Below, piece by piece: positions 38,575-62,432 of a stretch of 64,000 nucleotides of DNA. A program made the position numbers and the translations under genes. Below the pieces are notes generated by a model. That model ran no database searches. It had not been told where the DNA came from and saw nothing but the letters and a program-made list of their open reading frames with translations. Each line of letters opens with the position of its first letter. Position 1 is the stretch's first letter. This DNA comes from an uncultured bacterium (GTDB lineage: Bacteria; Planctomycetota; UBA8108; UBA1146): assembly GCA_913056395.1 (NCBI GenBank), contig CAJXMG010000002.1, positions 17,353 through 81,352 on the forward strand. Reading direction: 5' to 3'.

Positions 38575-38575
38575 C

Positions 38576-49223: not shown

Positions 49224-49246
49224 GCCGGTCTCCCGAACAAGTTGAA

Positions 49247-49287
49247 ACGGAGGGTGGATCCCCGGTGATCCACCCTCCGTTTTTTTG
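49247..49287 (+). terminator. Rho-independent terminator
   Basis: 14-bp perfect stem acggagggtggatc / gatccaccctccgt, loop cccggt, then TTTTTTT. Confidence 0.8.
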
Positions 49288-49347
49288 TGCCTGATCCACA
49301 AATTGGATCACTTCTGCCCTTAAACCGACTGATCAGCATTCTCGAAA

Positions 49348-51291
49348 TTGAGCCCAGTCGTTATGATCGGAAGCAGAAGAGGGGGCAGTACTTTGGCCAG
49401 GGACACCAAGCCCAAACCAGGATGTGAAGGATTTCGCCGATCCGGCAACCGGACCCCCGGTCGTTCGGGAAAGCGACGGGCATGGGTTCTCGGATTTGTC
49501 CATCTCCTCATCGCAGGCCACCTGATTCACTGGTGGATCACGGGGCGCACTCTCTCCCCCATCGAACCTTCAGAGAGTATGTACACCCTCGAAAATGGTC
49601 AGGTGAATGCGGGCTTCATCTTTTTTGTAGTCGCCATCTTGTCGACCGCAGTACTGGGTCGCTGGTTCTGTGGCTGGGCATGTCACATGGTGGCGCTCCA
49701 GGACCTGTGTGGCTGGATGATGAAAAAGGTTGGAATCACTCCCCGCCCCTTCCGCAGCCGTCTGCTCTCCTGGGTCCCCTTCATTCTCGCCTTCTACATG
49801 TTTCTCTGGCCCACCTTCAAACGGGAAGTGTTTCCCATCGTTGAATCATTCCTTCCGGGATTGACCACATGGTTCGCTCCTGTGAAAGCGTGGCCAGGAT
49901 TCAGCAACCACCTCTTCGTGGAAGATTTCTGGGCCACATTCCCCTCGGTCATCGTCTCGATTCCGTTCTTTCTGATCTGCGGATTCGTCGTCGTCTACCT
50001 GCTGGGGGCCAAAGGTTTCTGTACTTACGGGTGCCCTTATGGAGCCTTCTTCAATATCGCTGACCGCGTCTCACCGATGCGCATCGTCGCAGATATGTCA
50101 AAGTGCGAATCGTGTGGATTGTGCACGGCACACTGCACCTCCAATGTACAGATCTCCCGTGAGATCCGTGTTCACGAGCAGGTGGTCGATCCGGGCTGCA
50201 TGAAGTGCCTCGACTGCGTGGATGTCTGCCCCAACAGCGTGCTTTCATTCGGTTTGGGAAAGCCGGGACTGTTGGCGAGCAAAGGCCCTGAAGCCAAAAA
50301 AATCGCCCGAAAATCCCATCTCTCCTGGGGTGGTGAACTGGCACTCGCATTGGTGTTTGCCCTGAGCTGGTTCAGCTGGCGAGGTGTTTACGAGCAAGTC
50401 CCCCTGCTGATGGCCACCGGTATCGCCTTGATGGTGACTTTTCTCTGTTGGAAAGGGTTCCAGTTACTGAGCGAGAAAGATGTCTCTCTCCAGCAGCAGC
50501 CCCTTCGGCGATCCGGGAAGTGGACTTCCTCCGGCAAGTGGGTTCTCGTCTCTGCTTTCCTCTGCCTGACGATGACGGTCTCTGCAGGGAAATCCCGTTG
50601 GGACCTCCAACAGTCCTCCCAATGGATGGAGAAAGCGGCGGTCAATCTGGATCAGGTCTTTTTGCCTGGCAAACCGCCTGTTCCAGCAGAAGCCATCGCC
50701 GCCGCTGAAAATGCACTCGGGTTTTTAAAGTCGCAGCTCTCTGTCACCCGGGGAGGATTCGCCCTCTTTGAGCCGGAAGGAACCCGTCTCGAAGAACGAC
50801 TCGGTTACATGAGTGCCGTATCCGGGGACCTGACGGCGGCCAAACGCTGGTGGAGCAGCGCCCTCGATGAACCTCTCGAACCGAGCCACGATCTGTTGTT
50901 GCGCTATGGCCAGTTGATTGAAAAACAGGATGGCCCGAAAGCCTTGGCTGACTGGCTGAACTCCTCCAGGGATCGCTGGGGGTTACTCCCCCCCCTCGTC
51001 ACACTTCGGGGAATTCTGGCGCAGAAACAGGCCACCGCCTCTGTTCAGAATGGAAGCTACTATGCTGCAGCCCTGCATCTGGAAGCGTTGATCCCCTGGA
51101 TCGGACCTAACCCCGGCTTGCTCGAAGACATGGGGCGACTGCTCGACTCAGCAGTCCCGAGTCAGGAAGTTGACGAGATGCGTCTGCGCCTCAACCAACT
51201 TCGGTCCAACAATGTCGCCCCGGGATCCCCTTCAGGAGTGATTCAGGAAGCAGGAGTGATTCAGAAAGCAGGAGTGATTCAGGAAGACTGA
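49348..51291 (+). CDS. NapH/CcoG/NosR-family membrane polyferredoxin with long C-terminal TPR-like extension
   Basis: GRWFCGWACH and CTYGCPYGAF motifs, plus two CxxCxxCxxxC(P) clusters (CESCGLCTAHC, CMKCLDCVDVCP). Several transmembrane helices. Confidence 0.6.
   Translation: MSPVVMIGSRRGGSTLARDTKPKPGCEGFRRSGNRTPGRSGKRRAWVLGFVHLLIAGHLIHWWITGRTLSPIEPSESMYTLENGQVNAGFIFFVVAILSTAVLGRWFCGWACHMVALQDLCGWMMKKVGITPRPFRSRLLSWVPFILAFYMFLWPTFKREVFPIVESFLPGLTTWFAPVKAWPGFSNHLFVEDFWATFPSVIVSIPFFLICGFVVVYLLGAKGFCTYGCPYGAFFNIADRVSPMRIVADMSKCESCGLCTAHCTSNVQISREIRVHEQVVDPGCMKCLDCVDVCPNSVLSFGLGKPGLLASKGPEAKKIARKSHLSWGGELALALVFALSWFSWRGVYEQVPLLMATGIALMVTFLCWKGFQLLSEKDVSLQQQPLRRSGKWTSSGKWVLVSAFLCLTMTVSAGKSRWDLQQSSQWMEKAAVNLDQVFLPGKPPVPAEAIAAAENALGFLKSQLSVTRGGFALFEPEGTRLEERLGYMSAVSGDLTAAKRWWSSALDEPLEPSHDLLLRYGQLIEKQDGPKALADWLNSSRDRWGLLPPLVTLRGILAQKQATASVQNGSYYAAALHLEALIPWIGPNPGLLEDMGRLLDSAVPSQEVDEMRLRLNQLRSNNVAPGSPSGVIQEAGVIQKAGVIQED
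51232..51285 (+). repeat. Three 18-bp tandem repeats encoding GVIQ(E/K)A at the C-terminus of the polyferredoxin
   Basis: gcaggagtgattcag(g/a)aa x3 read directly. Confidence 0.8.
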
Positions 51292-52241
51292 TCTTCCCCC
51301 GTCAGTTTCAGGTAGGCCTGCTCAAGGCTCGCACCTTCACGCACTTCATGGGGAGGCTGACCCTTCTCTATCAGAAAACGGTACAACTGGGACAAGGCCC
51401 CATTCAAGCCATCTTCCTGATCCGCATTCAGACTAACCGTCAATTGGTGATCGCTGAACTCCACTTCATTGACGTGGCTCAACTGCTTCACCTCAACGAC
51501 CAATTCCACCTCCACCTTTGCATCGAGGTGAATCTCAAAGCGACGCGCCCGCCTTGTGACCTCTTCCACGGTGCCACTGGAAATCAACTCTCCACCAACG
51601 ATCACACCGACCGAATCGATGAGGTCCTGTAGCTCCAAAAGGTTGTGCGAGGAAACGATGACCAGCGATCTTTCCGCCAACTCGCGCATCAGATGACGAA
51701 TCTGTCGTGCGTTGGCGGGATCGAGACCCGCTGTCGGCTCATCGAGAAGGACAATTTCAGGCTCGGCGAGGATCGCCTGAGCCACACCCAGTCTCTTGCC
51801 CATTCCATGGGAGAGAACAGCGGCTCCCCTGAAAAGCTCGGTCTCGAGGCCCACCCGCTGCATCACTTCGCGAACACGCTGTTCCGCCACTTCCCCCTGA
51901 TAACCATCCAGTTTCAAAAGAAAGAGAAGTTGATCAAAGATGGAGATATCCCTGGCGAAGATGGCGTCCTGGGGCATGACGCCCACTCGACCCATGAGGG
52001 CAGAAGCGACGGGGCTCGACTCCCCCAACACCGAAATCGTTCCCTTCTGCAAAGTCAGGAACCCGGCGATCAGGGAAAACAGTGTGGTCTTGCCCGCACC
52101 ATTGGGCCCGACCAGTCCGACGATTCCTTTTTGGGGCAGAACCCAATCGATGTCTTTCAGGGCCTGCTTTTCACCAAAGTGATGACTCAAGCCGCGGATG
52201 TGAATCGCTTCACCATTGGTGACTTCAGAAGAGTTGCTCAA
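51279..52241 (-). CDS. ABC transporter ATP-binding protein
   Basis: Walker A GPNGAGKTT, LSGGQ-like signature, Walker B ILLDEPT. Confidence 0.85.
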   Translation of the reverse strand: MSNSSEVTNGEAIHIRGLSHHFGEKQALKDIDWVLPQKGIVGLVGPNGAGKTTLFSLIAGFLTLQKGTISVLGESSPVASALMGRVGVMPQDAIFARDISIFDQLLFLLKLDGYQGEVAEQRVREVMQRVGLETELFRGAAVLSHGMGKRLGVAQAILAEPEIVLLDEPTAGLDPANARQIRHLMRELAERSLVIVSSHNLLELQDLIDSVGVIVGGELISSGTVEEVTRRARRFEIHLDAKVEVELVVEVKQLSHVNEVEFSDHQLTVSLNADQEDGLNGALSQLYRFLIEKGQPPHEVREGASLEQAYLKLTGEDQSS

Positions 52242-53164
52242 AGGTCAGCCCTCCGGAATCTCCATGCCGCGAGAGTCATGAACAGAAGACTGTGTCCCAT
52301 TGAATATGCCACGGCTTTGAAGACCTTGTCTCCATCCGGAGAGAGCAGTTCATGGGAGTATCCCCAGGGTAGCAGATACAGAAGATTGCCGAGGGGGTCC
52401 CATGCCTCCTGAAGACTGAGTGCCAGCAACGGTGTCCCCACCGTGGCTCCCACTGCCGCCAGAAGAGCGACCATCGGTACGCGGAAGACCGCAGAACACA
52501 AAACTCCAAGGGAGACATAGGGAGTCGCCAGACAACACAGGGAAAAAAAGCAACGCCCCGCCCACGGCACCATCGATTCAGTCGCCTCCGGTGGCAACAT
52601 GATCGACAGATAGACCACCACTGAGAACAAGAGCAGCAATATCAATACCCAGGACAGAATCAGTGTCCCCAGCCAGCGTCCCACCAAAAGGGACAGGCGG
52701 CTGGTTCGGGGAAGGAGATAGCGAACCGTTCGGTGTTGGACATCGCTGGAGATGGCGGTGAAGGACCCCAGCGGTAAAAGGAGTGGCAACACCACTCCCA
52801 ACAGTAAAACCGTGATCGACAGCAACATCGGATTGTCCTGAATCAGATATCGTGCCCACATTCCCAGATCGATCAGGTCTCCGGAATCCATTCGAGAAAG
52901 AATGTCCGTATCCGGTGGACCATTTTCATCTTCCCCACCCATACGCAAACTGGCGGTGGCAAGGGCAAATCCTATGGCCTTGCTTGCGGATTCCCTGAAC
53001 TCTTCCGCTGTCGTAAAGCCCAGCTCCACAGGAGTGATCGAGAGGTTTGCCAGTGAAAGACCGATCAGAATCGTCAGAAAGATGAAGGCGACCCCCGAGC
53101 CGGTCCGCAGGGAGTGAATGATCAGTTTTTGTGCATGGAGAAGGACATGACGAATTGGAATCAT
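52238..53164 (-). CDS. ABC-2-type transporter permease
   Basis: Six hydrophobic helices. ATGA overlap with the ATPase gene. Confidence 0.65.
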   Translation of the reverse strand: MIPIRHVLLHAQKLIIHSLRTGSGVAFIFLTILIGLSLANLSITPVELGFTTAEEFRESASKAIGFALATASLRMGGEDENGPPDTDILSRMDSGDLIDLGMWARYLIQDNPMLLSITVLLLGVVLPLLLPLGSFTAISSDVQHRTVRYLLPRTSRLSLLVGRWLGTLILSWVLILLLLFSVVVYLSIMLPPEATESMVPWAGRCFFSLCCLATPYVSLGVLCSAVFRVPMVALLAAVGATVGTPLLALSLQEAWDPLGNLLYLLPWGYSHELLSPDGDKVFKAVAYSMGHSLLFMTLAAWRFRRADL

Positions 53165-53553
53165 CCGGTTTTCCCCTGCGCTTGAAGAAAGTCACGGCGA
53201 AAGATCACATGGAGCATGAAAATCAGGAAAAGGGGATAGAAGATTTGTCGGGCAATGGAGAGTCCATTACCCCTGAGGAATGTTTGTGGCAACCATTCGA
53301 TGCTCAGAATGTAAAAGGCAGCCAAAGCGATGCCGCCAAGGGTGCCGAGCCAACGCCCGATCAAATTGCTGCGCTTCAACAAACCCCATATCGAAACCAG
53401 AAGCAGCAGTGTTGCTACCAATCCGATCACGGCAAGGATTTGCAAATCCATGGGAGTGAGTCCCTCATCGAGGAGAGACTGCAGATACTCGCGACGCCAG
53501 CCCCGGCCTCGCACCTCACCCTCTGCCACCTCCATGAGGTCATAGGAGGTCAT
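53161..53553 (-). CDS. Small integral membrane protein (unknown), translationally coupled to the ABC permease
   Basis: Hydrophobic helices. The 5' end is uncertain (Met at 53553, or a non-ATG start near 53630), and the track start at 53745 overlaps the bfr-like gene. Confidence 0.35.
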   Translation of the reverse strand: MTSYDLMEVAEGEVRGRGWRREYLQSLLDEGLTPMDLQILAVIGLVATLLLLVSIWGLLKRSNLIGRWLGTLGGIALAAFYILSIEWLPQTFLRGNGLSIARQIFYPLFLIFMLHVIFRRDFLQAQGKTG

Positions 53554-53635
53554 AAATCGCTCAATCGTCGTTCCGCCGACGGCAAGAGCGAAGAACCCAT
53601 TGAGAACCGAAAGGGCTGTCAGCCCACCGGGACGG

Positions 53636-54085
53636 TCACTCGCTGCCAACGGTATTTTCCCCGAGGAGCATCCGCAATTCGGAAACGTGTTCAGATTCCA
53701 GGGCCACCTGTTGACGGGCGAACTCCTCGAGAACCACGTCCCCACTACCCTCTACCACCTCGAGAAACTCCTTGTACGCATCCAGAGCCGCCTGCTCAAA
53801 GAGAAGGGCCGTTTGAAGTGCTTCGATGCCCGTACACTTTTCACCGGTCAACTCGAGATTGATTTTTGGCTGGGGGGTTCCCCCCACCTGAAGAATCTTC
53901 TCGGAGACCTGTTGGGCATGCTCGACCGTTTCTTCATGATTTTCCTGAAGCACCTTTTGGATGACCAGTCGATCGATCCCCTGGACCAGTGTGCCCAGAT
54001 GCAGATATCGGATTGAAGCTTCCAGCTCTTCCGCCAACAACTCATTCAGGCGGCTCAGAGCAACCTCACGGGAATATTCACTCAT
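53636..54085 (-). CDS. bfr: Bacterioferritin / ferritin-like diiron protein
   Basis: ExxH pairs (HEETVEH, LESEH) in a ~150-aa four-helix protein. Start set at MSEYSRE. Confidence 0.6.
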   Translation of the reverse strand: MSEYSREVALSRLNELLAEELEASIRYLHLGTLVQGIDRLVIQKVLQENHEETVEHAQQVSEKILQVGGTPQPKINLELTGEKCTGIEALQTALLFEQAALDAYKEFLEVVEGSGDVVLEEFARQQVALESEHVSELRMLLGENTVGSE

Positions 54086-54635
54086 CGTCTTTATCCTTGC
54101 TTTGCTCTTCAGAGCTGCTCTGCAATCGCTCGGAGATGGTCTCGATCTCTTTTCCCGGGAAAGCCTCAACCCGGCCTTCGCGGATACTGTCTTCGAGAGC
54201 GTTCACTTGCTGTTCACGATCCGAAGAAGAATCCGAAGCATCCTCTCTTCGATCGATGTAGATCGCCAGCGCCTCAGCGGTCAGATCGCTGACCAGGTGC
54301 TCAATCTTGCAGGCGTCCATTTCCGCCAGATCCGCAGGCAGACCGAGGGATTTTTCCAAAAACGCCTGAAACAGGACCCGCTTGGTGTGAATCCCCCGCG
54401 CAATCCGCTGGCCTTCATCAGAAAGCCCCAAATGCTTGTGCTGGTCTTCCACCACCAGCCCTCTTTGCCGGAGCCCCTTGAGGGAGACGGAGACACTTCC
54501 GCGGGTGATGCCCAGTTTTCGGGCGACATCCGACACTCGGGCATACCCCTGATCTTCCAGGAGTTGCTGAATCGCCGTCAAATGGTGGGCAGCAGAATGA
54601 CTTACGGGGTTCTGGTCGAACTCTCGCCAATCCAT
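54078..54635 (-). CDS. DtxR/MntR-family metal-dependent transcriptional regulator
   Basis: HTH VSDVARKLGITRGSVSVSLKGLRQRGLV. Start at MDWREF with a GAGGAGGAG ribosome-binding site. Overlaps the bfr start by 8 nt. Confidence 0.75.
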   Translation of the reverse strand: MDWREFDQNPVSHSAAHHLTAIQQLLEDQGYARVSDVARKLGITRGSVSVSLKGLRQRGLVVEDQHKHLGLSDEGQRIARGIHTKRVLFQAFLEKSLGLPADLAEMDACKIEHLVSDLTAEALAIYIDRREDASDSSSDREQQVNALEDSIREGRVEAFPGKEIETISERLQSSSEEQSKDKDDE

Positions 54636-54652: not shown

Positions 54653-54668
54653 GTTTGGGTACCCAAAC
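54653..54668. promoter_or_regulatory. 16-bp perfect palindrome GTTTGGGTACCCAAAC, candidate operator in the dtxR / feoA divergent region
   Basis: Read directly. About 20 nt upstream of the dtxR start. Related copies at ~61034 and ~62417. Confidence 0.5.
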
Positions 54669-54921
54669 GGGTTGATGAGCACTCAAACAGCATGTAAAAA
54701 TAGGCCTGCTGAGCACCGTGTTCCTGGATCTGCAGATTAATGCCCGATTCACGTAAGGACAAGTGTTCGTAATAGTTGCGAGGCTCACTTGAGCCTTCAT
54801 CTCAGGACTTTCGAACTGGAGATCCATGCAAACCGGTAACCCCAGCCCAGAAAAGAGTGCGCGACCCTCGCTGGAACAGGCGGCTCTCAGCACGTCTGCC
54901 CAGGTCAGATCACTCTTTGAC

Positions 54922-55128
54922 ATGAAACTGGGAGATCGGGGTCGCCTGGTGGAAGATTCAATCCCCCAGAATCAGCGCCCCCTGCTGGAAGCGATGGGCA
55001 TGTGTGGGGACTGCGAGCTTCGGGTTTGCCACAATTCCGGTTCCTGCATTCTGGAGATCGACGGACAAAGGGTAGGACTCAGTGAAGAGATCGCTTCTAC
55101 GCTCCGGGTTCTCCCTCTGGACAGTTGA
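54922..55128 (+). CDS. feoA: FeoA-family protein
   Basis: MKLGDRGRLVE...LLEAMGMCGDCELRV...LEIDGQRVGLSEEIASTLRV matches the FeoA SH3-like fold. The track ORF begins at 54826. Confidence 0.65.
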   Translation: MKLGDRGRLVEDSIPQNQRPLLEAMGMCGDCELRVCHNSGSCILEIDGQRVGLSEEIASTLRVLPLDS

Positions 55129-55239: not shown

Positions 55240-55929
55240 GTGAAGACTGACATGACCCGATTTTACAAGCAGTCCGGATTTACCCTTGCTCGCTCCAATA
55301 CCTCAACCCGTTGGCTTCTGACTCTCTTTTTCCTGACCGTGATCTCCGGTTGCGTCGTTGCTGCGATTCAATACTCCAGCAGTGCAGGAGGATTCACCCT
55401 CGAGAATGCCCGCGAATGGGTTCTGGGCAATGAGGACGACCTCGATGCTGAAGAGTTGATGTCCGAAAAAACTCCCAGAGAACTGCTCTCCTTCATCCAT
55501 GACCACATCTTCTCGCTGGGAATGCTGCTCTTCGTCGTCCTGCACCTGTTTGAACTGACGCCCTGGTCCACCGGGGTCAAGGTCACCCTTTCCTTCACAG
55601 GCTTTGGAAGTCTTGCGGGGTTGCTCTTTTCACCCCTCGCCATCGCTTCCGGAAGTTCACTGGCACTCTTCACCCAGATCATCGGCGGAAGCCTTCTGTT
55701 GCTCAGTCTGGTAATGGGATCTTTGGCATGCCTCGACGAGTTGTGGTGGGCACCTCGCCGAAGAAATCGGGCGGGCAAGGCCGATCCCCCGGCTTCAGAC
55801 CCCCTCTTCCCTGCCAAAGCCTCGAAAAAAACAGACTCGGGCAAGTCGGAATCGGGAGGCTGTCCCATGGGCTTCGGGTCCGGTCAAAAAAATCCCGGGA
55901 AACCTTCGTCAGAAGATTCCCCGGGATAA
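55240..55929 (+). CDS. Integral membrane protein of unknown function, downstream of feoA
   Basis: Four or five hydrophobic helices and a Gly/Ser/Lys-rich C-terminal tail. Confidence 0.4.
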   Translation: MKTDMTRFYKQSGFTLARSNTSTRWLLTLFFLTVISGCVVAAIQYSSSAGGFTLENAREWVLGNEDDLDAEELMSEKTPRELLSFIHDHIFSLGMLLFVVLHLFELTPWSTGVKVTLSFTGFGSLAGLLFSPLAIASGSSLALFTQIIGGSLLLLSLVMGSLACLDELWWAPRRRNRAGKADPPASDPLFPAKASKKTDSGKSESGGCPMGFGSGQKNPGKPSSEDSPG

Positions 55930-55955: not shown

Positions 55956-57128
55956 TTACTTGCTCTTTTCAGCGGCCTGTTCCGCTTTCGCTTCCTGAAC
56001 CAGCAACTCGATGGCGTCGTCCATTTCTTTGCCACGGATATCCTTGTAACGAATGATTCCCTTGGCGTCGATCAAGTAGATCGTCGGCCAACCGGTCACA
56101 TTCCAGCGTGTTGATATCGGTCCACCAGGACTTCCATCGTAAAAGCTGAGCCAGTTGATCTTGTTTTTCTCGACCACTTCACGGGCTTTTTCGATGGAGG
56201 AATCCGAATTGATTCCGACGATGGCAAAAGGATCTGCAGAGTATTTCTCCACGAGCGACCGCTCGTGAGGGTACATGGCCCTGCAGGGGCCTCACCAATC
56301 ACCCCAGAAATCAAGCAGGATCACCTTGCCTCTGAAAGAGGACAGCTGCATCAACTTGCCGGAGATCTCCTTGCCAATGATTTCAGGTGCGACACAACCG
56401 ACCTGAAGATTCTTCATTTCGAAGAGGTCGCCCTTGACCTTGTCGGCATAAACGGATCTCCCGTAAGAGACATCCCCATACTCATCCTGAACCCTTTTGA
56501 GCAGAGCCAGGCCCTCACTGCGGGTCTCTTCCTTCTTGCCCTTGATCTTGGCAAGAGAGTAACAGCCTGCGGCCTGAACTTCCCTGTGAGGCGAGTCACT
56601 GACCACCACGCTGAGAAAATCACACATGGCAGGAGCCATGGCATCGGAGCAGTAGTGTGCGTAGCGCAAGACGTCGACCAGCTTCTCATTCTTCAGGTAG
56701 TGAGTCTTGAGTGCTGACAATGCCTTTTCTGCCATCCAACCGGCAGATTCACTTCTGCCAGCCAGAGCCAACAATTGGTCACAAGCACCGAGGGCCGCAT
56801 CTGTCCCCGCATACTTGTCGATGGCTTTGAGCATCTCGGGGCCGACGACCATCACAGGATCGAGAGCCGGATCGAGTTCGATCTTCTCCATCTCTTTATC
56901 GCTGAGACCTTTTTCCCGAGCCTCTGTCAGCGGCTTGTAATAAGCCTCCTGAGCCTTGCTCATTTTTTTATTGATCTCTTCAAATGCCTTTTCAGCGGCC
57001 GCTTCCATCTTTTCATCTGCGATCCCCGAAACTGAAGCGGGAGAAAAAGAGAAAGCCACTGCCGGACCCGACAGCATAAAAGCGATCACGAGACAGACGG
57101 TCCCGTATCGACGAAGACGAGGAATCAT
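55956..57128 (-). CDS. TlpA/ResA-like thiol:disulfide oxidoreductase, candidate selenoprotein (in-frame TGA at 56292..56294 at the first Cys position of the CxxC motif)
   Basis: Two track ORFs (56292..57179 and 55956..56276) lie in the same frame and are separated by a single TGA. The read-through reads ...VILLDFWGDW-U-GPCRAMYPHE..., i.e. the thioredoxin-fold WCGPC motif with U for C. The second ORF continues with a TlpA-like fold (SFYDGSPGG...GWPTIYLIDAKG). Signal peptide MIPRLRRYGTVCLVIAFMLSG. Confidence 0.6.
56250..56267 (-). promoter_or_regulatory. SECIS-like hairpin downstream of the in-frame UGA
   Basis: mRNA CACGAGC-GGUC-GCUCGUG: a 7-bp stem with the same GGUC apical loop as the E. 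coli fdhF SECIS, beginning ~24 nt after the UGA with the loop at ~31 nt. Confidence 0.45.
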
Positions 57129-57347
57129 GGGATACCCTTCCAATTTTGACCTTCCGGTCGATCCACCTCCGTGGATCAATCTGCAACCAAAGATACCACA
57201 GTGGAAGAAATTGGCAGGGTCCTATTTGGAGCAGGGTCCACAATCTCCTCCGGACGTGCGGCTCCGCTTCCGGACCAGCAACAGGAGAGAGACAACTGCG
57301 ACGAGAGTCACAATCCAGAATTGGGAGTCTGATTCAAACATGGATTC

Positions 57348-59291
57348 TCACTCCCACCCAAGAAGCAAAATCAACATGCGCATGGCGGCAGCCATACCCC
57401 ACGCCAGGAGGCTCATCCATGTCAACTGAAGGATCGCCCACTTCCATGCCCCAGACTCCTTGCGAGTAACCGCAAGTGTGGGAAGGCACTGCATCGCCAG
57501 CACGAAAAAGACCAACAATCCAGCAGCCGAAGAGGGTGTCAGAAGAGGAGAACCATCATCCCGTCTGGAGTTTCTGATCTTCTCCATCAATGGTTCCGCT
57601 TCTGCCTCTTCGCCGGTTCCCAAAAGAACACTGGTTGAGGACACAAAAACTTCTCTGGCGGCAAAACTGGCCATGATCGAAATCGACAATTGCCAATCGG
57701 CTCCTATGGGTGCAAACACCGGCTCCACACTCTTGCCGATTCGACCCAGGTAAGACGCGGCGGTACTCTCTCGGGAAGCGAGGGAATCCGCCTCCTCGAC
57801 GAGAGATTCCGCTTCCTCCACAGATTCCACTGCTGCAGCTTTGGCTCGCAAATCGGCGACAGCAGAACTCTCTGTGCTCTTGGGATAGGTTCCCAACCAC
57901 CAGAGAACGATGCACATCAGCAAAATGACGGTTCCCGCATTTTTGAGGAAGAGCCAACCACGCTGGAAGGCGATTTTCAGGGAGTCCATCAATGACGGTC
58001 GCTGAAAGGGAGGCATCTCGAGAACCAGGTCAGGACTGGGCCCGGGCAACAGGAAACGCCGAACTATCCAGGCGCTGAAGACCGCTGCCAATGCTCCCAG
58101 CAGGTAACACCCGGCAAAAGCCAATCCGGCAATGAAGGGTTTTTCAGGAAAGAGCAACCCTACCAGCAGCTGGTATACCGGCAATCTGGCTGCACAAGAG
58201 AGGAATGGAGCAACCAGAATCGCTGCCAGACGATCCTTGCGATCCGGAATCAAACGCGTGCACAGAATTCCTGGAATGGCACAGGCGTGACTCGACAGCA
58301 AGGGAACGAAGGAATGCCCTGGCAGGCCGAATGGTCGCAGCCAACGATCCGCAACCAAAGCTGCACGGGCCAAATACCCAGTTTCCTCCAAAACACTGAT
58401 GAGGAAAAACAACAGCAAAATCTGAGGCAGGAAAATCAGCGTACCTGAGACGCCACCGATGATTCCCTCGACGACGAGACTTCGGACCTCGCCTTCCGGC
58501 ATGCTTGCGGAGACCCAATCCGCGATCAAAGCAAAGGTATTGTCGAGCCATTCCATGGGAATCTGGGCCAACCAGAAAACACATCCAAAAAGCAGGCTCA
58601 TGATGAGGAAAAAGGTCGTCAGCCCCCAGAAGGGATGAAGCAGGAACCGATCGAGGCGATCCTCTTTCTCTCTTCGCTTTTTGGCTTCCTCCGGTCGAAC
58701 GGGGCGTGTCACCGCTGCGACCGTATCGTCGACCCACTTCGAGTCGAGAACCGTATCCTGAGGACTCACGGGCCGCTCTGCCGCTGCCAGAATAAATTCC
58801 TTGAGGGCTACATTTCGGTGTGCATGACGATGAGCCAATTCCATGACCGGGACCTGAAGAATCTCTTCCAATCGCTGGAAGTCGATCTCCACACCCCGGA
58901 GCCGTGCTTCATCGGTTCGGGTCACAATGACCGCATTTGCAGTCCCTCTTTGCAGGCACTCCGCCAACAGGTTCATGTTTCTGCGCAGGCTGACCGCATC
59001 GATCACACTGACGATCAAGTCGGGATTTGGGGAAGCCTCCAAATGTTGTTGGCAATGACGGGATTCGGGAAGGTCCAGTTGCAACCCGTAACACCCGGGG
59101 AGATCGGTGACCTCCACATCGATGTCTCCCCAACGATCCTCACCCACCAGCGATTCCGCAGTGATTCCGGGAAAGTTGGAGACTCTGGCATTCCCCGTCA
59201 CAAGGGCATTGAAGAGGGTGGATTTTCCAACGTTGGGATTTCCGGTGACAGAAATGCGGAGTGTTTTCCCGGATTGTTCTTGGTTCATCAC
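57348..59291 (-). CDS. feoB: Ferrous iron transporter FeoB
   Basis: G-domain GNPNVGKSTLFNAL and a permease domain with many transmembrane helices. Confidence 0.85.
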   Translation of the reverse strand: MMNQEQSGKTLRISVTGNPNVGKSTLFNALVTGNARVSNFPGITAESLVGEDRWGDIDVEVTDLPGCYGLQLDLPESRHCQQHLEASPNPDLIVSVIDAVSLRRNMNLLAECLQRGTANAVIVTRTDEARLRGVEIDFQRLEEILQVPVMELAHRHAHRNVALKEFILAAAERPVSPQDTVLDSKWVDDTVAAVTRPVRPEEAKKRREKEDRLDRFLLHPFWGLTTFFLIMSLLFGCVFWLAQIPMEWLDNTFALIADWVSASMPEGEVRSLVVEGIIGGVSGTLIFLPQILLLFFLISVLEETGYLARAALVADRWLRPFGLPGHSFVPLLSSHACAIPGILCTRLIPDRKDRLAAILVAPFLSCAARLPVYQLLVGLLFPEKPFIAGLAFAGCYLLGALAAVFSAWIVRRFLLPGPSPDLVLEMPPFQRPSLMDSLKIAFQRGWLFLKNAGTVILLMCIVLWWLGTYPKSTESSAVADLRAKAAAVESVEEAESLVEEADSLASRESTAASYLGRIGKSVEPVFAPIGADWQLSISIMASFAAREVFVSSTSVLLGTGEEAEAEPLMEKIRNSRRDDGSPLLTPSSAAGLLVFFVLAMQCLPTLAVTRKESGAWKWAILQLTWMSLLAWGMAAAMRMLILLLGWE

Positions 59292-59334
59292 TTACGCCCC
59301 CTGAAAAAGCACTGCCCAATCAGCCAGAAAAGTC

Positions 59335-60951
59335 TCAGCGCTGATGACGCCCGACAAAACGTGGCTGGCTCTCACCCTCAACCAGAATCACTGCAGAAGC
59401 ATTCGGGCAGTTATCCAGAATCGTTCGTGCTCTCTCTTGTCCGAGAAGAGCGACAGTGGTGCTCAAGGCATCCGCCTCGGTGGCACTGTTCGAAAGAACC
59501 GAAGTGGTCAGGATACGTCCCGGTGAAGGATTGTCGAGAAGTTGCACTAGGTGATCCCCGCGTTCATAGCACGCAGTGGTCGCCAGTGAGGAGCGAATCA
59601 GTGACAGCTCATGGAGGACAGACTTGCCATCCCTGGGGTCATGGATTCCCACAGCCCAGGATTTTTCACCGGGGGGCGGATCGAGTGCCAAAAGTTGGCC
59701 TCCGAAATCGAGAAGAGCACGGGAGCAGCCGTGGGACTCAAGTACGACCGCCGCACGATCGAGGGCATAACCTTTTCCGATTCCACCCAAGTCGAGAATC
59801 AGGCCGGGACTCAACAGGGTGATCGTCCCCTTTTCCCGATCCACCTTGACGCTGCGGAAGCCATCCTTCTTCAGGGTCAGATCAAAGGCTCCCCCACTCT
59901 CTCTGGACATGGCGAGTGCTTTTTCGACGACCTCGACAGTTTCCCGGGCAACCTTGACCGGCTCTCCCACAGGTGCCGCTTCTACCCTCAAGACGTCGCT
60001 CCCCGCTTTCCAGCGGCTGTGCAGCGATTCCAGGCGCTCTACTTCAGAATAGGCGGCTTCCACAGCCTTGAGTGCCTGCTCTCCGTAGACCTCCATCTTG
60101 AGGACGGTCCCCATGGCGGGACGAGCCCTCTCGACGGAAGCCGGTTTGTCTTCCTTACCTGATCGGAGTACAGAAACGTCCTCAGGGCCCGCAGCGGTCA
60201 CCGGTTCCGCGGAGGCGGGTTCACCGTATGCCAGAGAGGAGCCGGAAAGAGCCTGCCAAACCAGATCCAGATTCTGTTTCTGCGAAACTTCAACGGTCGC
60301 GATCGATCGTCGCACTGCACGAACAGCTGCACGGGCAGAAAGAGTGGCACCGGAGAGGTTTCTGATTCCGCGGTGGAGCTTCAGCGACTTGCCCAGTTTT
60401 TTATTCCTGAACTGCCGGGTGAATCGGGGAGATTCAATCTCCTGACCGATGTGCTCCCGGTAAACGAGAACCTGAAGGTCAAGGACGCGCCGATCATTGT
60501 CGAGGGCGACAAAGAAAGTGATGGGACGATACTTCCCGACCTCATCGAGGATCACCACAGATCCCAGTCTGTTACCTTGGGGAGAGGTGACCCGAAACAG
60601 AGTGGTCTGTTGGTCATTGGTTCTCACCCTGCTCATCTCAACGATCTTCTTCTTCACTTCCCCTTCGACCGGAACATGGCATCGCTCTACGTGCACATCT
60701 GCACTCCACAGATCAGCAATCAGATCCCTGCTGAAGAAGCCGGAAGTCTTTTCGGGAAGCGTTGTCTCAGTCGACACACCTGTCTCGGAAGAGACGGATT
60801 CAGATGCACCTGGCTCAAGAGCCAGTGCCTGGGAAGAAACGGTCATGACCCACAGCAAACCCGCAACCAACCCGCAGTAACGGAAGCAGACCCGCGACTC
60901 GCGGATCCCTTCGGAATGCGTGCTGAAATCACTGCAGGAAACAGGGCTCAT
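59335..60951 (-). CDS. Fused FMN-binding domain (flavinylation target) and ApbE FAD:protein FMN-transferase
   Basis: FMN_bind motif NLSGATLSARA (SGATxS), ApbE motifs GGAFDLT and DLGGIGKGYALD. Start moved to the signal-peptide Met MSPVSCSDF... Confidence 0.7.
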   Translation of the reverse strand: MSPVSCSDFSTHSEGIRESRVCFRYCGLVAGLLWVMTVSSQALALEPGASESVSSETGVSTETTLPEKTSGFFSRDLIADLWSADVHVERCHVPVEGEVKKKIVEMSRVRTNDQQTTLFRVTSPQGNRLGSVVILDEVGKYRPITFFVALDNDRRVLDLQVLVYREHIGQEIESPRFTRQFRNKKLGKSLKLHRGIRNLSGATLSARAAVRAVRRSIATVEVSQKQNLDLVWQALSGSSLAYGEPASAEPVTAAGPEDVSVLRSGKEDKPASVERARPAMGTVLKMEVYGEQALKAVEAAYSEVERLESLHSRWKAGSDVLRVEAAPVGEPVKVARETVEVVEKALAMSRESGGAFDLTLKKDGFRSVKVDREKGTITLLSPGLILDLGGIGKGYALDRAAVVLESHGCSRALLDFGGQLLALDPPPGEKSWAVGIHDPRDGKSVLHELSLIRSSLATTACYERGDHLVQLLDNPSPGRILTTSVLSNSATEADALSTTVALLGQERARTILDNCPNASAVILVEGESQPRFVGRHQR

Positions 60952-61033
60952 CGACTTCTTCCTCTGATTGAAAGGGACGGTTTCGGGACCCAATGACGGA
61001 CCCGCCGAAAATAGAACTGATTTGGTACCGTTT

Positions 61034-61049
61034 GGCAACCCAAACAAAT
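61034..61049. promoter_or_regulatory. GTTTGGCAACCCAAAC, third copy of the GTTTGG..CCAAAC palindrome, upstream of the FMN_bind/ApbE-feoB genes
   Basis: Read directly. 6-bp arms with a 4-nt spacer (or 7-2-7 with one mismatch). Confidence 0.4.
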
Positions 61050-61169
61050 GACTTCTTTCACTGCTTTTGATCAGATTTACCCAAATTCAGCCCTCAGACT
61101 CTCATTGCCCATATTTGGCCATTGATTCCCGGCTCTGGCTTCCGAGAGCCAGAGCCGGAGAAAAATGGC

Positions 61170-62324
61170 CTAGAAGTAGGTCGCAGCGGAGAAGATGAAG
61201 GTTCCGTCGGGATCCGCAGATCCCTCGATCGACTCCTGCTCGTAGTCGAACTTGAGAACCGTCTCGTCCGTCGGCCGCATGTTGAAACCATAGGTCATGC
61301 GGTTCGTCACCGGGCCGGTGAGATCCTGCTCTTCCCAACGGATCGTCACCGCACAAGAGGAATCATCCCCCCACAGGTTGGTGACGAAATCCGGGAAGAA
61401 CTTTTTGGAGACTTCGATGGAGGTTGCGCTGATGTCGTCGGGAACTCCGCCGGCAATCGCCGCTGCGTCGCGGTCGATGGAAACATGACCCATCTCAAAG
61501 TTCAGGATCGTCGCACCCACTGCCTCAACCCAGCTGCCCAGATCTGTCGTGATATCGATGACGGTAATATTCAGATCGAGTTCGCCGGCGTCATCCCATG
61601 GGCCAGTCCAATTCGAGAATCCGATTTCGGTTCCAAGTACCGGGCTGTAGGTAAAACGTCCCACAAAGCTGGCGGGGCGATCCCCCATGTTGGTTTTCAG
61701 GCTGGGACGCCCACTCCGAATACCACTGGAAGTGTTGAAGTTGTATCCCCCCACACCGTCTTCACCCTGGAAACCGTTGACCGCATAGAACTCCATTCCC
61801 CAGGTTCCATCATCCGCTCCCCAGACTCCGCCCAGACCGGCACTGGTCAATGTCGAAGGAACAATCGAACGTGCGACAAAGGGGCGATTCGTCAACTGAC
61901 GCATCGGTGAGTCGTGATAGAGATTGGTCGACCCCAGGGGAATCAGAATCGCTCCGCTTCGCAGGGTCCAACCACCAAAATCCACATCGGCGTAGGCATA
62001 TTCAACTTTGGTTTCACCGTCACCTCTGGGGGCGCTGGCACCTCCATATTCGAATTCGATTTCGGCGGAGAAACTTACATTTTCGCTGATGTTCGCATCC
62101 AGCATCGGAACCAGTCGATGCTGTTTGAAATCGAGACGATCACTGTTCATGAACAACTCAAGATCCAGATATCCACCCAGGCGAATATCCCGATCCCCTT
62201 CTGCGGCGGGGCGATTGTCGTAACGGTCGACCTGTGCTTCGAGAACTCCGAAACTGGACAGAGTCAAAGCCAGTACGCAGACCAGAAGTGTGATTCTGGT
62301 GGAGAACGCAGGATTCAGCGGCAT
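61170..62324 (-). CDS. Putative outer-membrane beta-barrel (porin-like) protein
   Basis: Signal peptide MPLNPAFSTRITLLVCVLALTLSS, alternating amphipathic beta-strand pattern, C-terminal aromatic ...AATYF. GAGG ribosome-binding site before the ATG at 62324. Confidence 0.5.
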   Translation of the reverse strand: MPLNPAFSTRITLLVCVLALTLSSFGVLEAQVDRYDNRPAAEGDRDIRLGGYLDLELFMNSDRLDFKQHRLVPMLDANISENVSFSAEIEFEYGGASAPRGDGETKVEYAYADVDFGGWTLRSGAILIPLGSTNLYHDSPMRQLTNRPFVARSIVPSTLTSAGLGGVWGADDGTWGMEFYAVNGFQGEDGVGGYNFNTSSGIRSGRPSLKTNMGDRPASFVGRFTYSPVLGTEIGFSNWTGPWDDAGELDLNITVIDITTDLGSWVEAVGATILNFEMGHVSIDRDAAAIAGGVPDDISATSIEVSKKFFPDFVTNLWGDDSSCAVTIRWEEQDLTGPVTNRMTYGFNMRPTDETVLKFDYEQESIEGSADPDGTFIFSAATYF

Positions 62325-62416
62325 ATTTCGTTTCCTCTCTGAGGAGGCACGTAATCGATCATTCGCACCTCGTCTGAAAATCGTACTCTGCCGATGGTTA
62401 TAAAATGGCCCCCCTG

Positions 62417-62432
62417 TTTGGCAAGCCAAACA
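62417..62432. promoter_or_regulatory. GTTTGGCAAGCCAAAC palindrome (7-bp arms, 2-nt spacer) ~95 nt upstream of the porin gene
   Basis: Read directly. Same architecture as the dtxR-proximal palindrome. Confidence 0.45.

What the first reader, a model, noticed from the sequence alone, without database searches (positions are those of the whole stretch)
55956..62324. Porin - FMN_bind/ApbE - FeoB - TlpA(Sec) operon: candidate extracytoplasmic flavin-based ferric reductase coupled to Fe(II) import
Four co-directional minus-strand genes with short gaps. They encode a signal-peptide beta-barrel OMP, a secreted protein that fuses a flavinylation-target FMN-binding domain (SGATLS) to its own ApbE FMN transferase, FeoB, and a periplasmic thiol-disulfide oxidoreductase. 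FMN_bind/ApbE pairs are the hallmark of extracytoplasmic flavin electron transfer, as in Listeria EET, NQR and RNF. Placing one directly upstream of feoB suggests periplasmic reduction of Fe(III) to Fe(II) for Feo uptake, with the TlpA-like protein possibly providing or relaying reducing equivalents. FeoA is encoded separately, divergently from dtxR (54922..55128).
Basis: inference. Interest (0 to 1): 0.6.

Follow-up and report, generated by a model that had tools for sequence, protein, structure and literature searches.

The report
Flavin ferric-reductase module feeding FeoB
A marine planctomycete has a metal-regulated operon joining its own outer-membrane pore, a secreted protein that attaches a flavin to itself, the ferrous-iron importer FeoB and a selenium-containing redox protein. 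About a hundred related loci point to a widespread, undescribed way of reducing ferric iron for import, but no experiment has tested it.

Summary
On the minus strand lie a 16-strand porin, a secreted FMN_bind+ApbE fusion with an invariant SGATLS flavinylation motif, a full-length FeoB, and a TlpA-like protein with an in-frame UGA (W-U-G-P-C) followed by a conserved SECIS-like hairpin.

One is a 39-aa CxxC membrane peptide right after feoB. The other is a 4-TM protein (Pfam Aq_1264_TM, invariant HxH…H) encoded next to feoA.

A palindrome, GTTTGG-N4-CCAAAC, sits upstream of the porin gene, the fusion gene and dtxR. It recurs at the same places in orthologous loci.

Across about 100 loci the constant core is porin + FMN_bind + ApbE + Aq_1264_TM. 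FeoB joins this core in at least three different gene orders. A Fur gene lies just upstream in 9 of 12 informative soil and freshwater loci. TlpA(Sec) is specific to the marine clade.

The ferric-reductase-to-FeoB reading is therefore well supported by comparative genomics but is biochemically untested. The electron entry point is more likely Aq_1264_TM than TlpA. Flavinylation linked to iron assimilation is already published, with VIT1, P19/FTR1, PepSY and MsrQ. This FeoB/porin/Aq_1264_TM version is not, so it is a new variant of a known kind.

The parts
62416..62431 (.). Operator palindrome GTTTGGCAAGCCAAAC upstream of the porin gene
   Evidence: GTTTGG-N4-CCAAAC has 3 hits in the window against 0.21 expected; 0 of 100 shuffles reach 3. 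It sits in the same position in L001, L081 and L082.
61170..62324 (-). Dedicated outer-membrane porin: 384 aa, 16-strand barrel, signal peptide, C-terminal F
   Evidence: AF2 pLDDT 85.2 with 16 strands. Foldseek against PDB gives general porins at E 1e-12, TM 0.55-0.68. A homologue lies next to FMN_bind/ApbE in nearly all module loci.
61030..61045 (.). Second operator copy, between the porin and fusion genes
   Evidence: It overlaps the TTG at 61047, which argues for ATG 60951 as the true start. L001 has the same arrangement.
59335..60951 (-). Secreted FMN_bind + ApbE fusion protein (538 aa)
   Evidence: Pfam FMN_bind E 5.7e-5 and ApbE E 3e-43. RnfG-like by NCBIfam. More than 380 homologues, almost all Planctomycetota.
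60337..60354 (-). Flavinylation motif S-G-A-T-L-S (Thr203 of the 538-aa protein)
   Evidence: G201, A202, T203 and S205 are invariant in the 32-sequence alignment A1. It matches the published [S/T]GA[S/T] target motif (PMC8238504).
59392..60114 (-). ApbE (FAD:protein FMN transferase) domain
   Evidence: Invariant MGT, GIGKGYALD, H467 and ADAxxT. Taking H467 to correspond to the general base His257 of V. cholerae ApbE (PMC12052999) is an inference, not a structure-based alignment.
57348..59291 (-). FeoB ferrous-iron transporter (647 aa)
   Evidence: TIGR00437 383.7 bits against a cutoff of 315.65. Pfam FeoB_N, Gate x2 and FeoB_C.
57222..57341 (-).
   Evidence: ORF. Conserved counterparts in L001, L081 and L082. 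No NCBIfam match.
55956..57128 (-). TlpA/ResA-like periplasmic thiol-disulfide oxidoreductase with an unknown ~250-aa N-terminal domain; selenoprotein
   Evidence: Read-through translation. Thioredoxin_8 35.3 bits against 27. ResA/TlpA/DsbE models match below their cutoffs.
56292..56294 (-). In-frame UGA (selenocysteine) in the W-U-G-P-C motif
   Evidence: TGA is conserved in all four orthologues.
56250..56267 (-). SECIS-like hairpin CACGAGC-GGUC-GCUCGUG, 24 nt after the UGA
   Evidence: Folds in the MFE and centroid structures. Five consecutive codons (H-E-R-S-L) are identical in four orthologues, while neighbouring conserved residues vary synonymously. No Rfam hit.
55892..55927 (-). Intrinsic terminator (16-bp stem plus T7) ending the operon; it overlaps the 3' end of the convergent Aq_1264_TM gene on the plus strand
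55252..55929 (+). Aq_1264_TM (PF27139) 4-TM membrane protein with invariant HxH and a third His 13 residues later in TM2; candidate transmembrane electron conduit
   Evidence: PF27139 on the 100%-identical P0121. H87 and H89 invariant, H102 at least 90%. The gene immediately follows FMN_bind/ApbE in distant loci. AF2 gives 4 TM helices.
54826..55128 (+). FeoA, same strand as and upstream of Aq_1264_TM
   Evidence: Pfam FeoA E 1.7e-5, 25.2 bits against 23. feoA and Aq_1264_TM are 27-35 nt apart in L081 and L082.
54653..54668 (.). Third operator copy, GTTTGGGTACCCAAAC, between the divergent dtxR and feoA genes, just upstream of the dtxR RBS
   Evidence: Conserved in L001, L081 and L082.
54078..54635 (-). 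DtxR/MntR-family metalloregulator (185 aa from ATG 54635)
   Evidence: Pfam Fe_dep_repress and Fe_dep_repr_C. PDB alignments show C-x-x-E-H where MntR has E-x-x-E-H.
53636..54085 (-). Ferritin/Dps-like gene directly downstream of dtxR
   Evidence: Pfam Ferritin E 2.7e-18. Same order in L081 and L082.

Best explanation
This is an iron-starvation-induced, reductive iron-uptake system built around a conserved four-part envelope module.

Proposed path:
1. A dedicated 16-strand porin lets small Fe(III) species into the periplasm.
2. A secreted protein uses its own ApbE domain to attach FMN covalently to Thr203 of its RnfG-like FMN_bind domain.
3. That flavin receives electrons from the inner membrane. 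The most likely route is the 4-TM Aq_1264_TM protein, through its conserved histidines, possibly as a haem-b-binding homodimer.
4. The flavin reduces Fe(III) to Fe(II).
5. FeoB imports the Fe(II), helped by FeoA and a small CxxC peptide.

In the marine planctomycete clade a TlpA-like selenoprotein has been added. It probably keeps thiols of the Feo machinery or of the flavoprotein reduced in oxic sea water.

Expression is controlled by a DtxR-family repressor that binds GTTTGG-N4-CCAAAC.

Shown: domain identities, motif conservation, gene linkage and the operator. Inferred: flavinylation in vivo, the direction of electron flow, the Fe(III) substrate, and haem in Aq_1264_TM.
For: **Domains.** The HMMs for FMN_bind, ApbE and FeoB all pass their cutoffs. 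The SGATLS motif and the ApbE motifs are invariant.

**Synteny.** The gene order is the same in orthologous loci with 48-55% fusion-protein identity: L001, L081, L082/83.

**Module breadth.** The core porin+FMN_bind+ApbE+Aq_1264_TM is found in 89 loci. These carry phylum labels of Planctomycetota (including anammox), Dadabacteria, Acidobacteria and Elusimicrobia, plus MAGs labelled Delta-proteobacteria and Spirochaetia. Among the 89 are 69 of the 80 loci from the soil and freshwater metagenome scan.

**FeoB linkage.** FeoB is adjacent to the core in three different gene orders:
- porin-fusion-FeoB in the window clade;
- FeoB-Fur-ApbE-porin-FMN_bind-Aq in L018;
- FeoB-porin-FMN_bind-Aq-ApbE in L095 and L105.

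**Regulators.** A Fur gene lies within 5 kb upstream in 9 of the 12 metagenome loci that have at least 2.5 kb of upstream sequence; one more has FeoB there. These Fur proteins score best against Fur models rather than Zur, PerR or Irr.

**Operator.** The palindrome occurs three times in the window, only in this locus, and keeps its positions in orthologues. The DtxR-like regulator has Cys where Mn-sensing MntR has Glu, and a ferritin-like gene shares its operon.

**Operon end.** A single strong terminator follows tlpA.

**Published precedent.** Flavinylated extracytosolic proteins have been proposed as assimilatory iron reductases (PMC8238504). [quoted passage not shown]
Against: - No experiment on any member of this module was found.
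- Eleven fused-type loci outside the marine clade (anammox and other Planctomycetota: L004-L007, L011, L021, L084-L088) have no FeoB, Fur or DtxR within 5 kb. A twelfth FeoB-less locus, the unfused Dadabacteria L002, likewise has none. The core module is therefore not obligatorily next to iron genes.
- The Fur-linked loci fall into about five related groups, so the counts are not independent events.
- The regulator's best overall matches are MntR (Mn) proteins, and two MntR/DtxR ligand positions are not conserved.
- The Aq_1264_TM model has no significant structural neighbour. Its cytochrome b561 similarity is sub-threshold: 15.6 bits against 30.1, in only 3 of 46 members. Some members lack the third His.
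- There is no recognisable Fe(III)-binding site.
- The ApbE domain lacks a ~27-residue segment present in other ApbE proteins.
Confidence: 0.55

Rival explanations
1. Redox maintenance rather than iron reduction. The flavoprotein and the TlpA selenoprotein keep periplasm-exposed cysteines of FeoB or its CxxC partner reduced. Alternatively they scavenge oxidants so that Fe(II) entering through the porin survives until transport. No Fe(III) reductase step is involved.
For: TlpA/ResA-like proteins are thiol reductants. A CxxC peptide is encoded between feoB and tlpA. FeoB Gate regions contain conserved cysteines (sequence). Hybrid thioredoxin-like/flavinylated systems are described in the literature (PMC8238504).
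Against: TlpA and the CxxC peptide are confined to the marine clade, whereas the flavoprotein module is linked to FeoB/Fur without them elsewhere. The peptide's CxxC is predicted to be cytoplasmic by the positive-inside rule (inference).
Confidence: 0.12
2. Same architecture but a different metal. The system reduces Mn(III/IV) or another metal and imports it through a FeoB-type transporter, under an MntR-like regulator.
For: The regulator's best NCBIfam and PDB matches are MntR proteins.
Against: - FeoB passes the feoB equivalog cutoff.
- The regulator has the DtxR/IdeR-type Cys in C-x-x-E-H.
- A ferritin-like gene lies in the regulator's operon.
- In other phyla the adjacent regulator is Fur-like and scores best against Fur models.
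Confidence: 0.08
3. The porin/FMN_bind/ApbE/Aq_1264_TM module serves a non-metal periplasmic redox function, such as reducing an organic or sulfur/nitrogen substrate that enters through the porin. Its position beside feoB reflects inherited synteny or shared regulation only.
For: Eleven fused-type loci (L004-L007, L011, L021, L084-L088) and the unfused Dadabacteria locus L002 have no iron gene within 5 kb. The porin fold resembles anion-selective porins such as Omp32 and OprP.
Against: FeoB is linked in three different gene orders, and Fur is linked in about five Fur subgroups. The same operator precedes the module and dtxR.
Confidence: 0.12
4. Dissimilatory extracellular electron transfer. 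The module is a respiratory outlet to extracellular Fe(III), analogous to Listeria flavin-based EET or to porin-cytochrome conduits.
For: Covalent-FMN proteins mediate EET in Listeria (PMC8238504). A redox protein paired with an outer-membrane barrel recalls MtrAB-type conduits (from memory).
Against: - The barrel is a 16-strand diffusion porin, not a large sheath.
- No multihaem cytochromes or NDH-2 are encoded nearby.
- The locus is tied to an importer (FeoB), an iron-storage gene and iron-type repressors.
Confidence: 0.04

Closest known systems
Flavinylation-associated iron-assimilation gene clusters (Meheust et al. 2021, eLife, PMC8238504): ApbE + FMN-binding proteins with VIT1, P19/FTR1, PepSY-like or MsrQ-like components
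   Same: ApbE plus a flavinylated extracytosolic FMN_bind domain is encoded with a ferrous-iron transporter. The proposed role is assimilatory Fe(III) reduction. A thioredoxin-like protein appears as an alternative or additional redox partner. Fur control is reported for the PepSY-like gene clusters.
   Different: - The transporter here is FeoB. That paper's main text and held supplements never mention FeoB.
- The cluster has its own porin.
- The membrane partner is Aq_1264_TM, not NapH, MsrQ, PepSY, DsbD or NQR-like.
- ApbE and its substrate are fused.
- The thioredoxin-fold protein is a selenoprotein.
Cyanobacterial reductive iron uptake: porins let inorganic Fe(III) in, ARTO reduces it at the inner membrane, FeoB imports Fe(II) (reviewed in PMC7676907)
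   Same: The same logical path: porin, then periplasmic or inner-membrane reduction, then FeoB, in oxic water with very little iron.
   Different: The reductase there is a haem-copper oxidase homologue (ARTO), and the parts are scattered in the genome. Here the proposed reductase is a covalent flavoprotein and all parts lie in one regulated locus.
Flavinylation-associated transmembrane cytochromes b (PepSY-like, MsrQ-like, DUF4405, FezC; PMC11334425)
   Same: Small TM proteins found in apbE clusters that lack a known conduit. Their most conserved residues are TM histidines. FezC forms its haem sites by homodimerising. Aq_1264_TM fits this pattern, with HxH and a third His 13 residues later on one helix.
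   Different: There is no significant sequence or fold match: Pfam b561 15.6 bits against 30.1, and Foldseek best E 0.83. It has three histidines on a single helix rather than four central ones. Haem binding is untested.
RnfG / NqrC FMN-binding subunits and their ApbE maturase
   Same: The FMN_bind domain is RnfG-like (TIGR01947, E 2.8e-8) with the same threonine target motif.
   Different: It scores far below the RnfG/NqrC cutoffs. No other Rnf or Nqr subunits are nearby. It is a stand-alone secreted protein fused to ApbE.
ApbE fused to its own substrate in trypanosomatid fumarate reductases (PMC12052999)
   Same: The transferase and its target sit on one polypeptide, presumably allowing self-flavinylation.
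   Different: Those are eukaryotic and intracellular, with ApbE at the N-terminus of a fumarate reductase. Here the protein is bacterial and secreted, with the FMN_bind domain at the N-terminus.
Listeria monocytogenes flavin-based extracellular electron transfer (FmnB/PplA/Ndh2/EetAB)
   Same: ApbE-type flavinylation of an extracytosolic FMN_bind protein that passes electrons to Fe(III).
   Different: That system is Gram-positive, respiratory and quinone/NDH-2 driven. It has no porin, FeoB or iron repressor.

Membership tests
ApbE (FAD:protein FMN transferase, PF02424) | Match to the family HMM above its gathering score | tested here: met
   148.7 bits against 25.6.
ApbE (FAD:protein FMN transferase, PF02424) | Conserved catalytic and FAD/Mg2+ residues (general-base His; GxGKG; D/T Mg ligands) | tested here: inconclusive
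   GIGKGYALD, H467 and ADAxxT are invariant in 32 homologues. Their mapping onto V. cholerae His257 is by motif, not structure. A ~27-residue segment found in other ApbEs is missing.
ApbE (FAD:protein FMN transferase, PF02424) | FMN transferase activity | not testable with these tools
   Needs an enzyme assay.
FMN_bind flavinylation substrate (PF04205) | HMM match above the cutoff and the [S/T]GA[S/T] target motif | tested here: met
   24.1 bits against 22. S-G-A-T-L-S has G, A, T and S invariant. The motif definition comes from PMC8238504.
FMN_bind flavinylation substrate (PF04205) | Extracytoplasmic location | tested here: inconclusive
   The N-terminal hydrophobic segment ending in ALA|LE was read by eye. 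No signal-peptide predictor was available.
FeoB | Equivalog HMM above its cutoff, with G-domain, two Gate motifs and FeoB_C | tested here: met
   TIGR00437 383.7 bits against 315.65. Pfam domains.
TlpA/ResA-type periplasmic thiol-disulfide oxidoreductase | Thioredoxin fold with a CxxC-type active site | tested here: met
   Thioredoxin_8 35.3 bits against 27. Motif W-U-G-P-C.
TlpA/ResA-type periplasmic thiol-disulfide oxidoreductase | Match to the TlpA or ResA equivalog/subfamily models above their cutoffs | tested here: not met
   ResA 67 bits against 170; TlpA 59 against 230. It is TlpA-like, not an orthologue, and has an unknown 250-aa N-terminal domain.
Bacterial selenoprotein | In-frame UGA aligned with Cys of the redox motif, followed by a SECIS hairpin | tested here: met
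   UGA is conserved in 4 orthologues. The hairpin, with a GGUC loop, lies 24 nt downstream and is identical at codon level. Rfam gave no hit. Sec insertion itself is untested.
General (16-strand) diffusion porin | 16-strand beta-barrel fold | tested here: met
   AF2 pLDDT 85 with 16 strands. Foldseek matches OmpT, Omp32, OmpF and OprP at E 1e-12 to 1e-10.
Phosphate-selective porin O/P (PF07396) | HMM match above the gathering score | tested here: not met
   17.3 bits against 20.9. A few homologues carry PF07396.
Aq_1264_TM (PF27139) | Family HMM match | tested here: met
   The precomputed PF27139.1 annotation is on the 100%-identical P0121 and on all 19 close homologues. The model is absent from the local Pfam copy.
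Prokaryotic cytochrome b561 (PF01292) / flavinylation-associated cytochromes | HMM match above the cutoff; four haem-ligating His per functional unit | tested here: not met
   15.6 bits against 30.1; only 3 of 46 family members give even weak hits. There are three His on one helix. Haem binding through dimerisation remains possible but is untested.
Published flavinylation-linked iron-assimilation systems (PMC8238504) | ApbE plus a flavinylated substrate in one cluster | tested here: met
Published flavinylation-linked iron-assimilation systems (PMC8238504) | One of the described membrane conduits (NapH-, MsrQ-, PepSY-, DsbD-, NQR/RNF-like) and a VIT1 or P19/FTR1 transporter in the cluster | tested here: not met
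   The transporter is FeoB. A NapH-like gene lies about 5 kb away but accompanies the module only in the syntenic marine clade.
DtxR/IdeR iron-dependent repressor | Family domains plus primary-site ligands (Met10, Cys102, Glu105, His106 in DtxR) | tested here: inconclusive
   The domains pass their cutoffs. C-x-x-E-H is present, His replaces Met10, and the ancillary-site His is not aligned. The DtxR ligand numbering is from memory.

The most novel reading that the evidence does not exclude
Porin + covalent flavoprotein + ApbE + Aq_1264_TM is a self-contained reductive iron-acquisition machine found in several phyla. Within it, Aq_1264_TM would be a new class of histidine-ligated (haem-b or metal) transmembrane electron conduit running from the quinone pool to periplasmic FMN. 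This would be a general answer to how FeoB obtains Fe(II) in oxic, iron-poor habitats. The marine planctomycete version would add a selenocysteine TlpA as an oxidation-resistant thiol partner.
Probability: 0.3. Interest if true: 0.8.

Novelty: new variant of a known kind. Interest (0 to 1): 0.62.

Why it matters
FeoB is the most widespread bacterial ferrous-iron importer, yet in oxygenated water and soil almost all iron is ferric. How Fe(II) reaches FeoB there is poorly understood outside a few cases, such as ARTO in cyanobacteria.

A compact locus controlled by an iron-type repressor, recurring in several phyla, gives a concrete and testable candidate. It couples a dedicated porin, a self-flavinylating periplasmic protein and a new His-rich membrane protein to FeoB.

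It also does the following:
- extends the published link between flavinylation and iron assimilation to the Feo system;
- assigns a first functional context to Pfam family Aq_1264_TM;
- defines a candidate operator for a planctomycete DtxR-type regulator;
- adds a TlpA-type selenoprotein to metal uptake.

Tried and rejected
- **Rfam and tRNA scans.** Rfam at gathering thresholds found nothing in the window, including no SECIS family. No tRNA-Sec gene is present.
- **Metagenome scan seeded with Aq_1264_TM.** I used the type-B FMN_bind alignment A6 instead.
- **Genome-collection scan with the fusion alignment.** Generic ApbE patterns swamped it, so only about 15 of the 80 loci were true module loci.
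- **NapH-like polyferredoxin plus DsbH-like thioredoxin (48201..51291) as the electron source.** They are conserved only within the syntenic marine clade, are absent from module loci elsewhere, and have no operator copy. I rejected them as core parts.
- **Porin as an MtrB-like sheath for a porin-flavoprotein conduit.** The barrel has only 16 strands, so this is unlikely.
- **'Rosetta-stone' Aq_1264_TM-ApbE fusions (P0146, P0190, P0219, P0260).** The ApbE signal peptide or lipobox is retained between the two parts, so these may be merged gene calls. I count them as adjacency evidence only.
- **Small genes between the porin and fusion genes in distant loci, and the TlpA N-terminal domain.** No family was assigned.
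- **The 39-aa peptide.** It gave no NCBIfam match. Its resemblance to PGAP's 'FeoB-associated Cys-rich membrane protein' is from memory only.

Full report
**The observation**

ORF listing and translation show the described minus-strand genes at the stated coordinates.

Pfam and NCBIfam results:
- The 61170..62324 product is a secreted protein with a weak Porin_O_P match (E 0.003).
- The 59335..61047 ORF carries FMN_bind (24.1 bits, cutoff 22) and ApbE (148.7 bits).
- The 57348..59291 product is FeoB. It has FeoB_N, two Gate motifs and FeoB_C, and scores 383.7 bits on TIGR00437 against a cutoff of 315.65.
- The last gene is a thioredoxin-fold protein interrupted by TGA at 56292..56294. Read-through gives DFWGDW-U-GPC.

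The window matches marine Planctomycetota MAGs. A 100%-identical protein is annotated 'Planctomycetota bacterium', and 69-74% relatives come from Planctomycetia bacterium TMED53.

**Refinements to the anatomy**

1. A 39-aa ORF at 57222..57341 starts 6 nt after the feoB stop. It encodes one TM helix and a C-terminal C-G-P-C. Counterparts with CxxC exist in all three orthologous loci. The unit therefore has five genes.
2. The TTG at 61047 lies inside an operator palindrome, so the fusion protein most likely starts at ATG 60951 and is 538 aa long.
3. A 16-bp-stem terminator followed by T7 sits right after the tlpA stop, at 55892..55927. Nothing comparable lies inside the unit.
4. AlphaFold2 models the outer-membrane protein as a 16-strand barrel with pLDDT 85. 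Its structural neighbours are general porins (OmpT, Omp32, OmpF/C, OprP; E about 1e-12).

**Selenocysteine**

The UGA is conserved in all four orthologues. A hairpin, CACGAGC-GGUC-GCUCGUG, begins 24 nt downstream.

Its five codons (His-Glu-Arg-Ser-Leu, three of them six-fold degenerate) are identical in all four loci. Neighbouring conserved residues mostly differ at synonymous sites. This indicates selection on the RNA.

Rfam has no matching model hit. The similarity of the GGUC loop to E. coli fdhF SECIS is from memory.

**Flavoprotein**

An alignment of 32 homologues with 25-80% identity keeps G201, A202, T203 and S205 of SGATLS invariant. It also keeps the ApbE motifs MGT, GIGKGYALD, His467 and ADAxxT invariant.

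The motif fits the published ApbE target [S/T]GA[S/T] (PMC8238504). A general-base histidine is essential in V. cholerae ApbE (PMC12052999). An ApbE fused to its own substrate has a eukaryotic precedent.

**Regulation**

The palindrome GTTTGG-N4-CCAAAC occurs three times in 64 kb, against 0.21 expected; 0 of 100 shuffles reach three. The three sites are:
- 92-107 nt upstream of the porin ATG;
- between the porin and fusion genes;
- between dtxR and feoA, directly upstream of the dtxR ribosome-binding site.

In 1.48 Mb of fetched loci there are 15 hits. Twelve of them lie in the orthologous loci L001, L081 and L082/83, at the corresponding positions. This is phylogenetic footprinting of a shared operator.

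The adjacent DtxR-family protein is the obvious candidate binder, but that is an inference. Its best matches are MntR proteins. In the alignments, however, it has C-x-x-E-H where MntR has E-x-x-E-H, which is the DtxR/IdeR arrangement. A ferritin-like gene follows it.

**Comparative genomics**

Loci with 48-55% fusion identity (L001, L081, L082/83) share the entire order: porin, fusion, FeoB, peptide, TlpA(Sec). On the opposite strand come Aq_1264_TM and FeoA, followed by DtxR and ferritin.

More distant fusion loci with 25-41% identity lack FeoB and TlpA. They still keep a porin homologue upstream and an Aq_1264_TM gene immediately downstream. These are L084-L088, L011, L021 and the anammox loci L004-L007.

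The window's own Aq_1264_TM gene (55252..55929) sits beside feoA.

Unfused versions, with ApbE, porin, FMN_bind and Aq_1264_TM as separate genes, occur in several MAGs. These are labelled Dadabacteria (L002), Acidobacteria (L013), Elusimicrobia (L018), and Delta-proteobacteria and Spirochaetia (L008, L009). The last two resemble L002 closely, so their labels may be unreliable.

The Elusimicrobia locus reads FeoB-Fur-ApbE-porin-FMN_bind-Aq_1264_TM on one strand.

A metagenome scan with this 'type-B' FMN_bind domain returned 80 further loci:
- Of the 12 with at least 2.5 kb upstream, 9 have a Fur gene and 1 has FeoB within 5 kb.
- Fur or FeoB also appears at the contig edge in L097, L104, L105 and L127.
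- L095 and L105 show a third order, FeoB-porin-FMN_bind-Aq-ApbE.
- The Fur proteins fall into about five sequence groups. They score best against Fur models rather than Zur, PerR or Irr, though below the equivalog cutoffs.

**Aq_1264_TM**

The family is small: 188 cluster representatives among 1.84 billion proteins. Members have four predicted TM helices.

His87 and His89 are invariant, and His102 is conserved in at least 90%. All three lie in TM2.

Four representatives appear fused to ApbE. They retain an ApbE signal peptide between the two parts, so I count them only as adjacency evidence.

Similarity to cytochrome b561 is sub-threshold and fold search found nothing.

The literature gives a precedent. 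His-rich TM proteins in apbE clusters that lack a known conduit (DUF4405, FezC) proved to be haem-b cytochromes, and FezC was modelled to form its haem sites by homodimerisation (PMC11334425).

I therefore propose Aq_1264_TM as the electron entry point, at moderate confidence. Alternatives are a docking or metal-binding role, or supply of FAD to the periplasmic ApbE.

**Mechanism**

Under iron limitation the repressor leaves the operators. The proposed steps are then:
1. Fe(III) species diffuse in through the porin.
2. The self-flavinylated periplasmic protein receives electrons through Aq_1264_TM and reduces Fe(III).
3. FeoB, with FeoA and the CxxC peptide, imports the Fe(II).
4. TlpA(Sec), a clade-specific addition, maintains reduced thiols in oxic sea water.

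Shown here are the domains, motifs, linkage and operator. The chemistry is inferred.

**Rivals**

Four rival readings are weighed in the rival-explanations section: redox maintenance only, another metal such as Mn, a non-metal function with coincidental synteny, and dissimilatory electron transfer. The strongest counter-evidence to the main reading is that twelve module loci have no iron gene nearby: eleven fused-type loci and the unfused Dadabacteria L002. A further weakness is that the Fur/FeoB-linked loci are phylogenetically related.

**Comparison with what is known**

Meheust et al. (2021) linked flavinylation to iron assimilation through VIT1, P19/FTR1, PepSY-like and MsrQ-like systems, and noted thioredoxin-like alternatives. 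Neither that paper nor the 2024 follow-up mentions FeoB or porins. The 2021 text also lacks any mention of Planctomycetes or of an ApbE-substrate fusion. The PF27139 accession is not in the 2021 paper's held supplements; I did not search for Aq_1264_TM by name in either paper.

Searches for FeoB+ApbE, for ApbE+'Fur regulon' and for Aq_1264 found nothing relevant.

Functionally, the nearest analogue is the cyanobacterial porin-ARTO-FeoB route (PMC7676907).

**Verdict**

The locus is a new variant of a known kind, with interest 0.62.

Noticed in passing
window 57222..57341 (-): Unannotated 39-aa ORF directly after feoB: one TM helix plus a C-terminal CGPC. It is conserved with a CxxC in L001, L081 and L082. 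CGPC is also the classic thioredoxin motif and mirrors the U-G-P-C of the downstream TlpA.
   Followed up: partly
window 48201..51291 (+): A secreted DsbH-like thioredoxin (CGWC) is followed by a 647-aa NapH-like polyferredoxin membrane protein with a long C-terminal extension. NapH-like proteins are a known flavinylation-associated electron conduit. This pair stays with the iron locus only in the syntenic marine clade and has no operator copy.
   Followed up: partly
window 51279..54635 (-): The dtxR gene heads a run of co-directional genes: a ferritin-like gene, a 194-aa membrane protein with no family match, an ABC-2 permease and an ABC ATPase. The order is the same in L081 and L082. This may be a metal-responsive export or storage unit.
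   Followed up: no
window 59392..60114 (ApbE domain); alignment A1 columns ~490-516 and ~640-648: The ApbE domain of the window protein and 17 aligned relatives (the first 18 rows of alignment A1, down to about 32% identity) lacks a ~27-residue segment (…VGPLVxLW…) and a ~8-residue segment. Both segments are present in the other fusion proteins of alignment A1. The consequence for activity or substrate choice is unknown.
   Followed up: no
window 54669..54690, and the same place in L001, L081, L082: Next to the dtxR operator there is a second, imperfect element (GTTTnnG…GTCAAC), conserved in all four loci. This suggests tandem binding sites.
   Followed up: no
loci L008, L009, L013, L018, L089-L168 versus the window and L002: The FMN_bind proteins of the module fall into two sequence types. 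Type A has GKxxPITF…VYRE and is mostly fused to ApbE. Type B has DTHxxRTxPETxM…EPxDY and is always unfused. Gene order also differs between the types.
   Followed up: partly
L002, L008, L009: Three MAGs labelled Dadabacteria, Delta-proteobacteria and Spirochaetia have closely similar ApbE N-terminal sequences (judged by eye) and share a SEC-C-motif neighbour gene. Their taxonomic labels are probably unreliable, or the region has moved horizontally. L002 also has a Dps-like gene 2.7 kb downstream.
   Followed up: no
P0146, P0190, P0219, P0260 (protein database): These are apparent single polypeptides with an N-terminal Aq_1264_TM and a C-terminal ApbE. An ApbE signal peptide or lipobox is retained as a possible fifth TM helix. 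They may be real fusions or merged gene calls.
   Followed up: partly
window 19258..23628 (-): A molybdopterin oxidoreductase (944 aa) is followed by a fused 4Fe-4S-dicluster/NrfD membrane protein (507 aa), resembling a Psr/ACIII-type quinone-linked complex.
   Followed up: no
window 33294..44297 (-): A run of seven co-directional large ORFs. Two (33294..35926) hit amidohydrolase families in Pfam. The four at 38576..44297 have N-terminal signal-like sequences and look amidohydrolase-like by eye only. The ORF at 35851..38649 was not examined.
   Followed up: no
L086 3520..5445: In a FeoB-less fused module locus, a Cofac_haem_bdg (ChaN-like haem-binding) gene lies 1.7 kb upstream of the module's porin/TPR gene (4.6 kb upstream of the fusion gene). 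It is the only iron-related neighbour seen among the FeoB-less fused-type loci.
   Followed up: no
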